Shown: positions 4,896-17,637 of the stretch, piece by piece
How positions within the stretch are numbered: the first letter of the stretch is position 1
How the letters are laid out: each line of letters starts with the position of its first letter
DNA from: Escherichia phage PSD2002
Strand: one strand, 5' to 3'
DNA: 64,000 bases
Sequence record: OK335775.1
Made by a program: the position numbers and the translations under genes
The notes under the pieces: model-generated
Databases searched by the model: none
What the model was told of the DNA's origin: nothing
Seen by the model: only the letters and a program-made list of their open reading frames with translations

Positions 4896-5328
4896 GATTA
4901 ACAGAAATTTAGTTATCAAAAAACTTTGTTGTAAAAATCCAAATGCACAAGCATACAGGATGTTTTGGAGCGACGACCACCAATACCTAGGTTATTTTCT
5001 TGTTGATAGCGATGATCGAATTACAATGGCTCATAAACTTCTTAACAGAGAATTAAACCATTGGCAAGAACTTATTGCGGTGAGGTCTAAATTATTTTCT
5101 CGCAATACAATGCACCAATTGGTTTATTTTTTCGCCGAAGGTATTCCTGACAAGGTTGAGTTTGATGGATTCGAATTTAAAGACATCCTCCCAGACAACG
5201 AATTGAACGACCGCGTTAATATGGACATCCCTAGCAAGTATATCAAAAACAGTCTGTTGAAAATTCTGGAAGCTCCGGTTTATTCAATAGATGACCAGAT
5301 TTTTAATGCCTTTATGAATCGAGGTTAA
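4888..5328 (+). CDS. Hypothetical protein
   Basis: 146-aa ORF beginning at GTG 4888 (start uncertain), SD AAGAGG upstream; no similarity recognised. Confidence 0.45.
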   Translation: MNKINRNLVIKKLCCKNPNAQAYRMFWSDDHQYLGYFLVDSDDRITMAHKLLNRELNHWQELIAVRSKLFSRNTMHQLVYFFAEGIPDKVEFDGFEFKDILPDNELNDRVNMDIPSKYIKNSLLKILEAPVYSIDDQIFNAFMNRG

Positions 5329-5329
5329 T

Positions 5330-5551
5330 ATGTTTGTCTTAACTCAATTCTCTAAAGCGGTGTATAGTTACTCTTGTCAGTGGGAAGTCTTTATCGATTC
5401 TCCTTCACCTAAGTACGGTGTTTTTGGTCGAGTAACTACTCAAGCTTATGTTGCACGGCCAACTAAGCGCCAGCTTCGTAAACTTAAAAAGGCCCATCGC
5501 CAACTGATTGAGAGAAGGGAACAATATGAGTGCAATGTGTACGGGCTCTAA
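5330..5551 (+). CDS. Hypothetical small protein with basic C-terminal tail
   Basis: 73 aa; PTKRQLRKLKK motif paralogous to the tail of ORF 4303..4542. Confidence 0.45.
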   Translation: MFVLTQFSKAVYSYSCQWEVFIDSPSPKYGVFGRVTTQAYVARPTKRQLRKLKKAHRQLIERREQYECNVYGL

Positions 5552-15180: not shown

Positions 15181-15209
15181 GTTTACTTCTCCTCATGACA
15201 TGTTATTAT
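15181..15209 (+). promoter_or_regulatory. Early promoter embedded in a 10-bp inverted repeat
   Basis: GTTTAC-N17-TATTAT; arms TCTCCTCATG (15188-15197) and CATGAGGAGA (15222-15231). Confidence 0.6.
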
Positions 15210-15236
15210 CTACCCTATCAACATGAGGAGAACAAA

Positions 15237-15746
15237 ATGAAAATTTATCGAGTGGAGTCATCGTTCAGTATCTTAGATAACAGCGATGTTATAGCAATCA
15301 CTCACCAACAGTGCCGCCAATTAACACCGTATAGAGGCTCGTTTGATGAATGGAGCGAAGGTTGGTTATTAGAAGTAGGTTTCGACAAACCTAATTTTAG
15401 ACACCACCATACCAATAATAAAAATATTCCGCTACCAGGTCAAGACAAGTTGTTGGTGGAAAATTCTAATAAAAGCATTAGAACTAAGTGGAACCAGCCT
15501 GATTATGAAGGCTGTGATGATTGTATTCCAGGTTGGTTTGTTAATCTCTACCATTTTGCTTTTGCCAGCGAGTATGATATGATGCGCTGGTTCACTCGTG
15601 AAGAGCGTGAAGAATTATCTTCTAAAGGATTCTATCTTGCTGTTTACGAAATCCCTGAAGATGAGGTTGTCATTGGTAGCCGTCAATTAATGTTCCGCAA
15701 ATCCTATGCCGAACTCGTAGATTTTATTGAAATGAGAAAATTATGA
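15237..15746 (+). CDS. Hypothetical protein
   Basis: ATG 15237 after GAGGAG; early promoter 15181-15209 with flanking inverted repeat. Confidence 0.45.
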   Translation: MKIYRVESSFSILDNSDVIAITHQQCRQLTPYRGSFDEWSEGWLLEVGFDKPNFRHHHTNNKNIPLPGQDKLLVENSNKSIRTKWNQPDYEGCDDCIPGWFVNLYHFAFASEYDMMRWFTREEREELSSKGFYLAVYEIPEDEVVIGSRQLMFRKSYAELVDFIEMRKL

Positions 15747-16291
15747 AATTTAATTATAACCCTGAATATACACCAAATCCTGCAGCTAAACTGATTGATT
15801 TTGATGTTTTAAGCACTTATGTATGCCCTGTTAAACCACTGGAAATTAAGGAAACCACTATGACTACTCAGACTATCGAAATCGGCAAAACCTACAAACT
15901 GGTTGAACCTGAAATTAAAACTAAGGCCTTGATTTCCGGCCATAAAACCCTGACTGATGTTTTTGGTGAAGGCGAATTTATTGTTGAAGAATTTGCCAAA
16001 AGTGAGTGGTTCTCTAAAGCCTATATTCTCCACGGCCGTCGTTTAGACAATAACAAAATTGAGCAAACCCTGGTTTATGAAGATGAGTTCATCCTGTTCC
16101 AAGAAGTTGAAGAACAAGACCCTACCGACCTTCTGTGTGCTGCTGTGTCTATCCGTCGTCCTTTTGATAATCCTATCTGTGGTTGGGTAACAGACCAGTG
16201 GGTTGAAGACGGTGTTGAGCTGCTGAACGTTGTACATGCTGGTGATTTTAGCGTAGTACCTCGTAGTGCAGTGGTTAATGTATTGAATTAG
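15743..16291 (+). CDS. Hypothetical protein, paralog family A
   Basis: 182 aa; C-terminal block TDQWVEDGVELLNVVHAGDFSVVP shared with ORF 16365..16916. Confidence 0.5.
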   Translation: MKFNYNPEYTPNPAAKLIDFDVLSTYVCPVKPLEIKETTMTTQTIEIGKTYKLVEPEIKTKALISGHKTLTDVFGEGEFIVEEFAKSEWFSKAYILHGRRLDNNKIEQTLVYEDEFILFQEVEEQDPTDLLCAAVSIRRPFDNPICGWVTDQWVEDGVELLNVVHAGDFSVVPRSAVVNVLN

Positions 16292-16293
16292 TA

Positions 16294-16322
16294 GTTTACT
16301 TTATCGAGAGCCGTGTTATAAT
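16294..16322 (+). promoter_or_regulatory. Early promoter
   Basis: GTTTAC-N17-TATAAT with flanking inverted repeat GAGAGCC/GGCTCTC. Confidence 0.6.
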
Positions 16323-16364
16323 GGCTCTCATGGAGAATAAACTTATTAACCAAGAGAGAAAATT

Positions 16365-16916
16365 ATGATTACTATCGGTGAAATTGTTCGTGTATCCAAA
16401 GAATCTCGCTCAAAAGCCGCAGGTCGTTTTGTTGAAGTTGCTGGTATTCGTACTAATTTAGTAGGTGGAATTAAAGAAGTTAAAGTGCGTATTATTCCTA
16501 AAAATGGCCAGACTGAAACTCAATTCGCTTATGTGCATCCTAAATTCCTGGAATCAACTGAATTCACTGGACACATCGCTCCTGTAGTTGAAGAAGTTGA
16601 ATCCCATGATGGGTATGTATGTGAAAGCAATGATATCCGTGGCGTAGTAGCTCAAGACGTTGAAACTATTGACCAATCTCATGTTGGTGTTGATTTCAAA
16701 TGGAAATTAGGTAAAGGTGTCTTTTTCGTTTCACCTAAACCGTTTGAATACAATTGCAAGTATGGTCCGACTTATGAAACCACTAGTATGTCCGGTTACA
16801 TCACAGACCAATGGGTTGAAGAAGGTGTTAAGCTGTATAACATCGTGTTCCTTGGCACCTTTAAAGTAGTTCCTGAAAGTTTTATTGTTGAGTACGCTGA
16901 TATTCATTTTGCATAA
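16365..16916 (+). CDS. Hypothetical protein, paralog family A
   Basis: 183 aa; C-terminal block TDQWVEEGVKLYNIVFLGTFKVVP. Confidence 0.5.
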   Translation: MITIGEIVRVSKESRSKAAGRFVEVAGIRTNLVGGIKEVKVRIIPKNGQTETQFAYVHPKFLESTEFTGHIAPVVEEVESHDGYVCESNDIRGVVAQDVETIDQSHVGVDFKWKLGKGVFFVSPKPFEYNCKYGPTYETTSMSGYITDQWVEEGVKLYNIVFLGTFKVVPESFIVEYADIHFA

Positions 16917-16988
16917 AGTTTAAAAACAGTATACAACAGGGTAGTAGTGTGATACTATTACCCTATCAACAAATGAGAGGAAAATAAA

Positions 16989-17207
16989 ATGGCTAAAGTT
17001 ACTGTGAACTCGACTCGTGAAGAATTTGAAGATGTTCTGTTCAACCCTGATTTAATCGTGGTTCAAAAGGAACATTCTGATACGTTTTCTCATTTATCGT
17101 CGGTTTATGTATACGAAAACCAAGGTGATGAAAACCCTATCTATGCGGTGTTCCGTGAAATCACTGCTGAAGGCACCGACTTCTGGAAGGAAACTTATAA
17201 TGCTTAA
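16989..17207 (+). CDS. Hypothetical small protein
   Basis: 72-aa ORF after early promoter. Confidence 0.4.
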   Translation: MAKVTVNSTREEFEDVLFNPDLIVVQKEHSDTFSHLSSVYVYENQGDENPIYAVFREITAEGTDFWKETYNA

Positions 17208-17637
17208 TCAAGAACTTGAATTTGAAAAAGGTAAATGGTACTATTTTAAAGATGATGCGGCAGAAGCTGAATTCCGTAAGCTGAATTCCCATAATATTAG
17301 GAATCCTAATAATTCTTCTATAGCAGATATCATTGTCAATTCTGAAGGTTTTTGCCCTGTTAGATTAGCGGCAGGTTATGTGATGAACGTGGACTTGGCT
17401 TATGGTGATAACACTGATATGGTTTTATATCCAAGCGAGCGTAAATTCTTTACAGAAATGGTTGTAGTTGACAGTGAAGACGAATGGGCTGAAGATGGTT
17501 TCTCTGAAGACGAAGACCGGTCTGAAGATGCAGCTCCATTCGAACCGAGTGATTTTCCTTTAACTAAAATCACTATCTCTAATAATTCTGAAGCCTGGTC
17601 AGTTTTCCAGATGTTGAAAGCTCACTTTAAGGAATAA
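17200..17637 (+). CDS. Hypothetical protein with acidic C-terminal region
   Basis: 145 aa from ATG 17200; DSEDEWAEDGFSEDEDRSED acidic stretch. Confidence 0.45.
   Translation: MLNQELEFEKGKWYYFKDDAAEAEFRKLNSHNIRNPNNSSIADIIVNSEGFCPVRLAAGYVMNVDLAYGDNTDMVLYPSERKFFTEMVVVDSEDEWAEDGFSEDEDRSEDAAPFEPSDFPLTKITISNNSEAWSVFQMLKAHFKE

What the first reader, a model, noticed from the sequence alone, without database searches (positions are those of the whole stretch)
15743..16916. Paralogous ORF pair sharing a conserved C-terminal module
ORFs 15743..16291 and 16365..16916 (182 and 183 aa) differ over most of their length but end in a clearly homologous ~40-aa block (TDQWVE(D/E)GV(E/K)L.N(V/I)V..G.F.VVP.S). 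Each has its own early promoter (16294-16322 for the second). The shared module could be a common binding domain fused to different N-terminal specificity domains.
Basis: seen in the sequence. Interest (0 to 1): 0.45.

Follow-up and report, generated by a model that had tools for sequence, protein, structure and literature searches.

The report
Known MotB / MotB.1 phage paralogs
The two neighbouring genes are motB.1 and motB of a T4-like (Dhakavirus) coliphage. Their shared C-terminal domain fused to different N-terminal domains is real, but it was described in print in 2021, so the finding is correct but ordinary.

Summary
ORFs 15743-16291 and 16365-16916 share a C-terminal block (34 aa, 56% identity, BLASTP E 3e-11; profile-profile probability 98.7% over 63 columns) and differ elsewhere.

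The window is a JS98/QL01-like Dhakavirus. By synteny (dda-dexA-motB.2-motB.1-motB-cef-goF-39) and family models, the ORFs are motB.1 and motB. Pfam PF17613 already covers both.

Patterson-West et al. 2021 (PMC7827196) state that MotB and MotB.1 share a conserved CTD with different NTDs, including in Dhakavirus, and suggest a duplication. Kim et al. 2025 (PMC12152347) assign the MotB.1 NTD to an LSm-like family with GoF and Frd.2.

AlphaFold2 models made here show two small beta-barrels per protein joined by disordered segments. The shared block forms the last 3.5 strands of a five-stranded C-terminal barrel.

Only motB has its own promoter (16295-16322, embedded in a hairpin, PeSL-like). motB.1 overlaps motB.2 by ATGA and has none.

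Small additions:
- The shared block is acidic, which argues against it being the DNA-binding surface.
- A conserved short peptide motif lies in the disordered N-terminus of MotB.1.
- The T4 reference motB.1 is cut short by a 1-nt insertion inside the module.

Novelty: already known. Interest is low.

The parts
15182..15226 (+). Early-type promoter (TTTACT-16-TATTAT, TG) with its -10 inside a hairpin, upstream of motB.2. It is the probable promoter of the motB.2-motB.1 unit.
   Evidence: Promoter scan, 9/12 matches. RNA fold -15.5 kcal/mol, z -2.7. Nearly identical in JS98.
15237..15746 (+). motB.2, using the start annotated in JS98 (M15 of ORF 15195-15746). Its stop overlaps the motB.1 start (ATGA).
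   Evidence: JS98 annotation. 67% identity to T4 MotB.2. phrog_1106, E 1.4e-52.
15743..16291 (+). motB.1 (182 aa): disordered N-terminal peptide, LSm-like barrel, then the shared C-terminal barrel.
   Evidence: phrog_2333, E 3.3e-87 over the full length. PF17613 at 36 bits on aa 141-177. JS98 motB.1 by synteny. Identical protein in phage QL01.
15791..15841 (+). Conserved short peptide motif LIDFDVLSTYVCPVKPL (aa 17-33; pattern [IVLFM]D.D[IVLT]..[MTLAI]Y) in a segment the model leaves disordered.
   Evidence: pLDDT below 50 for aa 1-42. Motif present in 117/120 MotB.1 hits and in linkers of other family architectures. 5 synonymous against 2 non-synonymous codon changes versus JS98 in aa 1-39.
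15875..16108 (+). MotB.1 N-terminal domain (aa 45-122): beta-barrel with one helix, GoF-type LSm-like fold.
   Evidence: phrog_622 (the family of the window's GoF-like ORF), E 9.6e-6 on aa 44-126. AF2 strands 50-53, 78-86, 93-100, 105-112, 119-122, pLDDT about 77. PMC12152347.
16142..16285 (+). MotB.1 C-terminal barrel (aa 134-181). The block visibly shared with MotB is aa 145-178 (nt 16175-16276).
   Evidence: BLASTP. hhalign. AF2 strands 134-137, 145-155, 158-165, 168-173, short helix, 177-181.
16295..16329 (+). motB early promoter (-35 TTTACT 16295-16300; TG; -10 TATAAT 16317-16322). The -10 sits in the loop of a 9-bp hairpin (16306-16314 / 16321-16329). PeSL-like promoter/stem-loop cassette.
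   Evidence: Promoter scan, 10/12 matches. Fold of 16289-16364: -24.1 kcal/mol, z -5.8. T4 keeps the stem with different bases, GGGACC/GGTCCC. PeSL description in PMC4122927.
16365..16916 (+). motB (183 aa): basic KOW/SH3-like NTD (aa 1-63), acidic disordered linker (aa 64-107), C-terminal barrel (aa 108-180).
   Evidence: PF17613 at 175.5 bits (cut-off 25). phrog_1671, E 6.5e-70. 100% identical to MotB of phage vB_EcoM-E33. 49% identity to T4 MotB. AF2 model.
16788..16889 (+). Shared block in MotB (aa 142-175): end of strand 2 through strand 5 of the C-terminal barrel.
   Evidence: BLASTP. AF2 strands 136-152, 155-162, 165-170, 174-177, pLDDT 86-93.
16938..16964 (+). 12-bp hairpin in the motB-cef spacer. 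It overlaps a weak extended -10-like TGaTACTAT.
   Evidence: Fold -15.2 kcal/mol, z -2.9. Sequence read. Not reported by the promoter scan.

Best explanation
The pair is motB.1 (15743-16291) and motB (16365-16916) of a JS98/QL01-like Dhakavirus. Both are early genes of the dispensable dda-39 region of T4-like phages.

Shown here:
- Both proteins consist of two small beta-barrel domains.
- The C-terminal barrels are homologous. The N-terminal domains are unrelated in sequence: basic KOW/SH3-like in MotB, GoF-type LSm-like in MotB.1.
- The module is confined to small proteins of T4-like phages and always sits at the C-terminus.
- NTD types and CTD subtypes occur in several combinations.

Inferred origin: tandem duplication followed by replacement or shuffling of the N-terminal domain. 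The region's genes are separated by promoter/stem-loop cassettes that have been proposed to mediate such shuffling.

Inferred function (about 45% belief): the shared C-terminal barrel is a common partner-binding or self-association domain of SH3/Tudor-like topology, not the DNA-binding surface.
- On this reading, MotB's tight non-specific DNA binding (published for T4) resides mainly in its basic KOW-like NTD.
- MotB.1 would bring a different, possibly RNA-directed, LSm-like NTD to the same partner.

Expression: motB has its own sigma-70 early promoter. motB.1 is expressed with motB.2.
For: Identity:
- 97.8% DNA identity to Escherichia phage vB_EcoM-E33 and 91% to JS98.
- Same gene order and gene lengths as annotated in JS98.
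- Pfam and PHROG matches.
- Hundreds of homologues, all already carrying PF17613.

Homology of the CTDs.

Two-barrel architecture:
- AF2 models.
- Both CTD models have a short helix between the last two strands, as SH3-like barrels do.

Distribution: only 32 cluster representatives among 1.84 billion carry the module. The small-protein hits (43-251 aa) are phage-type proteins with the module C-terminal.

Shuffling:
- KOW NTD joined to a MotB.1-type CTD (P0249, P0253, P0254, P0257, P0259, P0260).
- Duplicated LSm-type NTD (P0245).
- A motB.2/motB.1 deletion fusion (P0264).

Charge:
- Shared block net -4 in all 22 MotB.1 representatives and -2.1 on average in 41 MotB representatives.
- MotB NTD +5.4 on average.
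- The window's MotB.1 has pI 4.6.

Literature:
- Shared CTD and duplication idea (PMC7827196).
- LSm-like NTD (PMC12152347).
- MotB DNA binding and H-NS/StpA co-purification (PMC6070864).
- PeSLs (PMC4122927).
Against: - The functional step rests on net charge and fold class only. Acidic domains can still carry a basic DNA-binding face.
- The published HHpred analysis assigned the MotB CTD to a cold-shock-like OB fold that could bind DNA.
- The MotB.1 model is of moderate confidence: mean pLDDT 65, CTD 71-77.
- No partner of the CTD is known. MotB-H-NS association was seen only in the presence of DNA.
- T4 motB.1 knock-outs have no phenotype under laboratory conditions.
Confidence: 0.75

Rival explanations
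1. The shared C-terminal domain is the nucleic-acid-binding domain (a cold-shock-like OB fold, as proposed in 2021). Both MotB and MotB.1 would then be DNA-binding proteins, with the NTDs adding other contacts.
For: - HHpred-based assignment in PMC7827196.
- MotB binds DNA tightly and non-specifically.
- Five-stranded small barrels of the OB and SH3 types are hard to tell apart in such small domains.
Against: - The shared block is uniformly acidic: -4 in MotB.1, about -2 in MotB. The whole MotB.1 CTD is about -5 and MotB.1 has pI 4.6. The MotB NTD is strongly basic.
- The helix lies between strands 4 and 5, not between 3 and 4 as in OB folds.
Confidence: 0.3
2. The similarity is kept high by ongoing gene conversion or recombination between the two adjacent copies, rather than by selection on a common function.
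For: - A 35-nt stretch (16187-16221 against 16800-16834) differs at only 3 positions.
- Mosaic CTDs exist. P0244 mixes MotB.1-type EDGVELLNVV with MotB-type GTFKVIP.
- Deletion and fusion products such as P0264 show recombination in this region.
Against: - Over the block, third codon positions are only 47% identical, against 63% and 71% at first and second positions. That is the pattern of old divergence under purifying selection.
- The two CTD subtypes (..GVELLNVVH..PRS and ..GVKLYN[IV]VF..PES) stay distinct across genera.
Confidence: 0.1
3. Chance or compositional similarity between two unrelated ORFs.
For: None beyond the shortness of the visible block.
Against: - BLASTP E 3e-11.
- Score 109 against a shuffle maximum of 40.
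- hhalign probability 98.7%.
- Both hit PF17613 above its cut-off.
- Same predicted strand pattern in both.
Confidence: 0.01

Closest known systems
T4 MotB (Pfam PF17613 'Modifier of transcription'; phrog_1671)
   Same: ORF 16365-16916 matches over its full length (175.5 bits; 49% identity to T4 MotB). It has the same position between motB.1 and cef and the same KOW-like basic NTD plus C-terminal barrel.
   Different: The Dhakavirus protein has a roughly 20-aa longer acidic disordered linker (aa 64-107) than T4 MotB. No biochemical data exist for this ortholog.
T4 MotB.1 and its relatives ('Category 2/4' proteins of Patterson-West et al. 2021; phrog_2333)
   Same: ORF 15743-16291 occupies the same locus. 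It shares the DPTDLLC...GWVTDQW..EDGVELLNVVHAG..SVVPRS C-terminus and an LSm-like barrel NTD.
   Different: - The NTD sequence is of a different subtype from T4's. Only aa 104-154 align with T4 MotB.1.
- It carries a 42-aa N-terminal extension with a conserved peptide motif.
- Unlike the T4 reference protein (119 aa, frameshift-truncated), it has the complete module.
GoF / Frd.2 / MotB.1 LSm-like fold family (Kim et al. 2025, PMC12152347)
   Same: The MotB.1 NTD (aa 44-126) hits the same PHROG (phrog_622) as the window's GoF-like ORF 17107-17637. The predicted fold is five strands plus a helix.
   Different: GoF has a different C-terminal domain and lacks the MotB module. No third copy of the module exists in the window.
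PeSL (promoter-early stem-loop) cassettes of T4-type phages (Arbiol 2010, PMC2839356; Comeau 2014, PMC4122927)
   Same: TTTACW-N17-TAYWAT-type promoter with a stem-loop in the spacers before motB.2 and motB, in a hyperplastic region.
   Different: Here the -10 lies in the hairpin loop. I did not compare with the published PeSL alignments, and no recombination event at these sites was demonstrated.
SH3-like small beta-barrels (Tudor, KOW, PWWP, chromo; e.g. 53BP1 tandem Tudor 3lgf, PHF19 Tudor 6wau)
   Different: Sequence identity is 10-18%, so this is fold-level resemblance only. There is no evidence of an aromatic cage or methyl-lysine reading. Which barrel gave the match is unresolved.

Membership tests
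MotB (PF17613 / phrog_1671) | Full-length match to the family profile above the curated cut-off | tested here: met
   ORF 16365-16916: 175.5 bits against cut-off 25. phrog_1671 E 6.5e-70 over aa 1-183.
MotB (PF17613 / phrog_1671) | Conserved genomic position: between motB.1 and cef in the dda-39 early region | tested here: met
   Same order as the JS98 and T4 annotations. cef is PF24050 at 16989-17207.
MotB (PF17613 / phrog_1671) | Non-specific DNA binding, co-purification with H-NS/StpA, toxicity in E. coli | not testable with these tools
   Known only for T4 MotB (PMC6070864 and PMC7827196).
MotB.1 (phrog_2333; MotB.1-type CTD) | Full-length profile match and a MotB.1-type C-terminus (DPTDLLC...GWVTDQW.EDGVELLNVVH) | tested here: met
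   phrog_2333 E 3.3e-87 over aa 1-182. Invariant C-terminal columns in the 22-sequence alignment.
MotB.1 (phrog_2333; MotB.1-type CTD) | Position immediately upstream of motB and downstream of motB.2 | tested here: met
GoF/Frd.2/MotB.1 LSm-like fold family | N-terminal bent five-stranded antiparallel sheet related to the GoF NTD | tested here: met
   phrog_622 E 9.6e-6 on aa 44-126. The same PHROG scores 1.3e-24 on the GoF-like ORF. AF2 gives five strands at pLDDT about 77. Direct BLASTP against GoF is not significant, as the paper also reports.
GoF/Frd.2/MotB.1 LSm-like fold family | RNA-related activity | not testable with these tools
   Even for T4 MotB.1, no effect was seen in the reporter assay.
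Cold-shock-like OB fold (published assignment of the shared CTD) | Five-stranded barrel with OB topology (helix between strands 3 and 4); OB-fold structural neighbours | tested here: inconclusive
PeSL promoter/stem-loop cassette | Sigma-70 early promoter of TTTACW-N17-TAYWAT type combined with a stem-loop in an intergenic spacer of a hyperplastic region | tested here: met
   16295-16329 and 15182-15226. Consensus taken from PMC4122927.
PeSL promoter/stem-loop cassette | Mediates insertion, deletion or shuffling of the flanked genes | not tested
   Only indirect: varied architectures and a deletion fusion among relatives.

The most novel reading that the evidence does not exclude
The shared module is not the DNA-binding OB fold proposed in the literature. 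It is an acidic SH3/Tudor-like docking or dimerisation barrel that directs differently armed early proteins to one common partner: MotB with a basic KOW domain, and MotB.1 with an LSm-like domain plus a conserved D-x-D-phi-x-x-x-Y peptide. MotB-MotB.1 hetero-association is possible.

Published tests of T4 MotB.1 would have missed this, because the T4 reference allele lacks most of the module.
Probability: 0.3. Interest if true: 0.35.

Novelty: already known. Interest (0 to 1): 0.1.

Why it matters
The finding has little importance of its own. The paralogy and modular architecture of MotB and MotB.1 are published and already encoded in Pfam.

It is a clean example of domain shuffling among early host-takeover genes of T4-like phages.

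The side observations could help those who study MotB and MotB.1 design cleaner experiments:
- the acidic CTD;
- the conserved disordered peptide motif;
- the frameshifted motB.1 allele in the T4 reference.

Tried and rejected
- **Chance similarity:** rejected.
- **A third copy of the module in the window:** none found. The six-frame HMM scan's next-best hit has E 0.22.
- **Solved relatives by sequence:** none for MotB. One insignificant hit for MotB.1 (a protein kinase, E 0.022).
- **Own promoter for motB.1:** none between 15600 and 15743. Only a weak internal site at 15398-15425 and the site before motB.2.
- **Intrinsic terminator between the two genes:** none found. The hairpin at 16306-16329 is not followed by a T-run.
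- **Long repeat proteins from the representative search (P0261-P0263, P0266; 601-862 aa):** they match only about 25 profile positions, through a repeated tail-fibre-like GYATEQWVE.KGYLT motif. I treat them as short-motif coincidence amplified by repetition, not as carriers of the module.
- **BFVD fold search:** returned family members and a few other two-barrel phage proteins. It added nothing new.
- **First permutation script:** timed out and was rerun.
- **Alternative start of motB.1 at M40 (15860):** some records annotate this start, giving 142-143 aa. I consider it less likely than M1, for three reasons:
  - aa 1-39 are conserved;
  - changes against JS98 are mostly synonymous (5 against 2);
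  - the region contains a motif that is internal in other family members.

  Both ATGs have plausible Shine-Dalgarno sequences, so M40 is not excluded.

Full report
**What is there.** The window has two adjacent + strand ORFs exactly as described: 15743-16291 (182 aa) and 16365-16916 (183 aa). Their similarity is well above chance.
- BLASTP aligns only one segment, aa 145-178 against aa 142-175: 19/34 identical, no gaps, E 3e-11.
- The best ungapped 34-residue BLOSUM62 score is 109, against 20 +/- 5 (max 40) in 1000 shuffles.
- A profile-profile comparison of the two families extends the relationship to 63 columns with an insertion in the second protein (probability 98.7%).
- An HMM of the block finds just these two copies in all six frames of the 64-kb window.

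**Identity.**
- The region is 97.8% identical to Escherichia phage vB_EcoM-E33, about 97% to QL01 and WG01, and 91% to JS98. All are Dhakavirus, T4-like Straboviridae.
- The JS98 annotation gives the same gene order and lengths: dda, dexA.1, dexA, motB.2, motB.1 (549 nt), motB (552 nt), cef, goF-like, 39.2, 39.1, 39. T4 has the same order.
- The second ORF is a full-length MotB: PF17613 at 175.5 bits, phrog_1671 at E 6.5e-70, and 49% identity to T4 MotB.
- The first ORF is MotB.1: phrog_2333 at E 3.3e-87. It also passes the PF17613 cut-off through its C-terminus alone (36 bits, aa 141-177).
- All 239 and 122 database relatives found are phage-type proteins that already carry PF17613.
- The exact MotB.1 protein is in phage QL01.

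**Already published.**
- Patterson-West et al. 2021 (PMC7827196) aligned 102 MotB homologues from Tequatrovirus, Gaprivervirus, Dhakavirus and Mosigvirus.
  - They suggest that one gene arose by duplication of the other.
  - They note that 40 other genomes have both genes.
  - They assign the MotB NTD to a KOW motif and the CTD to a cold-shock-like OB fold, either of which might bind DNA.
- Kim et al. 2025 (PMC12152347) place the MotB.1 NTD in an LSm-like fold family with GoF and Frd.2.
- Only these two papers in the held library mention MotB.1.

**Anatomy from models made here.**
- *MotB* (41-sequence alignment, mean pLDDT 71):
  - a four-strand N-terminal barrel, aa 7-57;
  - a disordered linker, aa 66-107;
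  - a confident C-terminal barrel (pLDDT 86-93) with strands 118-130, 136-152, 155-162, 165-170, a short helix, then 174-177.
- *MotB.1* (22 sequences, mean pLDDT 65):
  - a disordered N-terminus, aa 1-42;
  - a barrel with one helix, aa 50-122;
  - a smaller C-terminal barrel with strands 134-137, 145-155, 158-165, 168-173, a short helix, then 177-181.
- The visibly shared block is thus the end of strand 2 through strand 5 of one domain. The upstream hairpin is long in MotB and short in MotB.1, which explains the insertion in the profile alignment.
- With the helix between the last two strands, this favours an SH3-like rather than an OB topology for the CTD. The searches used whole two-domain models, so this stays unproven.
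- The MotB.1 NTD hits phrog_622, the family of the neighbouring GoF-like ORF (17107-17637), at E 9.6e-6. This independently supports the LSm-like/GoF link.
- Within 2 kb, MotB.1 therefore shares one domain with MotB and the other with GoF.

**Distribution and shuffling.**
- A profile of the CTD searched against 1.84 billion cluster representatives finds only 32 proteins, 21 of them at E up to 1e-10.
- The small-protein hits (43-251 aa) have the module at the C-terminus.
- The architectures include:
  - KOW-type NTD with a MotB.1-type CTD (P0249, P0253, P0254, P0257, P0259, P0260);
  - a duplicated LSm-type NTD (P0245);
  - an extra N-terminal domain (245-251-aa forms);
  - mosaic CTDs (P0244);
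  - a 43-aa deletion fusion of the MotB.2 N-terminus to the last 29 residues of MotB.1 (P0264).
- Four long repeat proteins matched only through a short GYATEQWVE repeat and are dismissed.

**Expression signals.**
- Its -10 sits in the loop of a 9-bp hairpin. The 76-nt spacer folds at -24.1 kcal/mol, z -5.8.
- T4 keeps a stem at the same place with different bases.
- The same promoter-in-hairpin design precedes motB.2 (15182-15226). A hairpin also follows motB (16938-16964).
- These elements fit the PeSL promoter/stem-loop cassettes described for T4-type phages and proposed to mediate modular shuffling (PMC4122927).
- motB.1 has no spacer. Its ATG overlaps the motB.2 stop (ATGA), so it is most likely co-transcribed and translationally coupled with motB.2.

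**Mechanism.**
- Shown: homology of the CTDs, unrelated NTDs, the two-barrel layout, and early-promoter context.
- Published for T4 MotB:
  - tight non-specific DNA binding;
  - DNA-dependent co-purification with H-NS/StpA;
  - toxicity in E. coli;
  - a two-fold burst-size benefit.
- New here, the charge distribution:
  - the shared block carries net -4 in all 22 MotB.1 representatives and -2.1 on average in 41 MotB representatives;
  - the MotB NTD averages +5.4;
  - the window's MotB.1 has pI 4.6.
- My best reading (about 45%) is that the basic KOW-like NTD carries MotB's DNA binding, and that the shared acidic barrel is a docking or self-association domain common to both proteins.
- The published alternative, that the CTD is itself a nucleic-acid-binding OB fold, remains possible (about 30%).
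- Gene conversion as the cause of the similarity is unlikely. Third codon positions are only 47% identical across the block, and the two CTD subtypes stay distinct across genera.

**Verdict.** The feature is already known. Interest is low.

Noticed in passing
L002 (T4 NC_000866.4) 5143-5400, minus strand; corresponds to window 16190-16291: The T4 reference motB.1 (119 aa, the '13.8 kDa protein') is truncated by a single extra G (ATTGGAAGATGG against ATTGAAGATGG) right after WVTDQWI.
- The remaining 29 codons of the module (LEDGVELLNVVHAGEYSVVPRSAVVAILN*) are intact in the next frame.
- Near-identical intact 144-aa orthologues exist (T4_ev151, FL23).
- The 119-aa form is on only 2 contigs.
- The held main text of the 2025 study of T4 MotB.1 contains no occurrence of 'frameshift' or 'truncat'; that study's motB.1 amber-mutant sequences are defined on NC_000866.4 coordinates and its MotB.1 runs as a 13.8-kDa monomer.
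   Followed up: partly
window 15791-15841 (MotB.1 aa 17-33): A conserved short peptide motif, [IVLFM]D.D[IVLT]..[MTLAI]Y followed by a proline a few residues on, lies in a segment the model leaves disordered.
- It is present in 117/120 MotB.1 hits.
- In other family members it sits in the linker between a KOW-type NTD and the CTD.
- It is absent from the 120 MotB hits and occurs nowhere else in the window.
- It looks like a short linear binding motif. Neither MotB.1 paper was searched for this motif, and it is not mentioned in the sections I read.
   Followed up: partly
window 15182-15226, 16295-16329, 16938-16964: Early-type promoters whose -10 element lies in or next to the loop of a stable hairpin (PeSL-like cassettes) flank motB.2, motB and cef. 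At the motB site, T4 keeps the stem with different bases.
   Followed up: partly
window 15743 versus 15860: The start codon of motB.1 is annotated inconsistently in public records: 182 aa from M1, or 142-143 aa from M40. Both ATGs have a plausible Shine-Dalgarno sequence. Conservation of aa 1-39 favours M1.
   Followed up: partly
window 17107-17637 (probable start near 17218), overlapping cef 16989-17207: This is a GoF-like ORF (phrog_622, E 1.3e-24; 30% identity to T4 GoF). The mechanical ORF start at 17107 overlaps cef by about 100 nt. By alignment with JS98 and T4, the real start is probably the internal ATG (MLNQELEF...).
   Followed up: no
P0012, P0067, P0082-P0088, P0278-P0280 (relatives, 245-251 aa): Some close relatives of this MotB.1 carry a 68-aa insertion right after the first 13 residues (MNTFDPNAKYIVTP[...]KQLIDFDV). 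This adds a further N-terminal domain. The short form in the window looks like its deletion derivative, or the reverse.
   Followed up: no
window 16554-16685 (MotB aa 64-107): The Dhakavirus MotB has an acidic, disordered linker (net -9) about 20 aa longer than in T4 MotB. Part of it (SHDGYVCESNDIRG) faintly resembles the DG[YF]V.D.D[VI] context of the MotB.1-type peptide motif.
   Followed up: no
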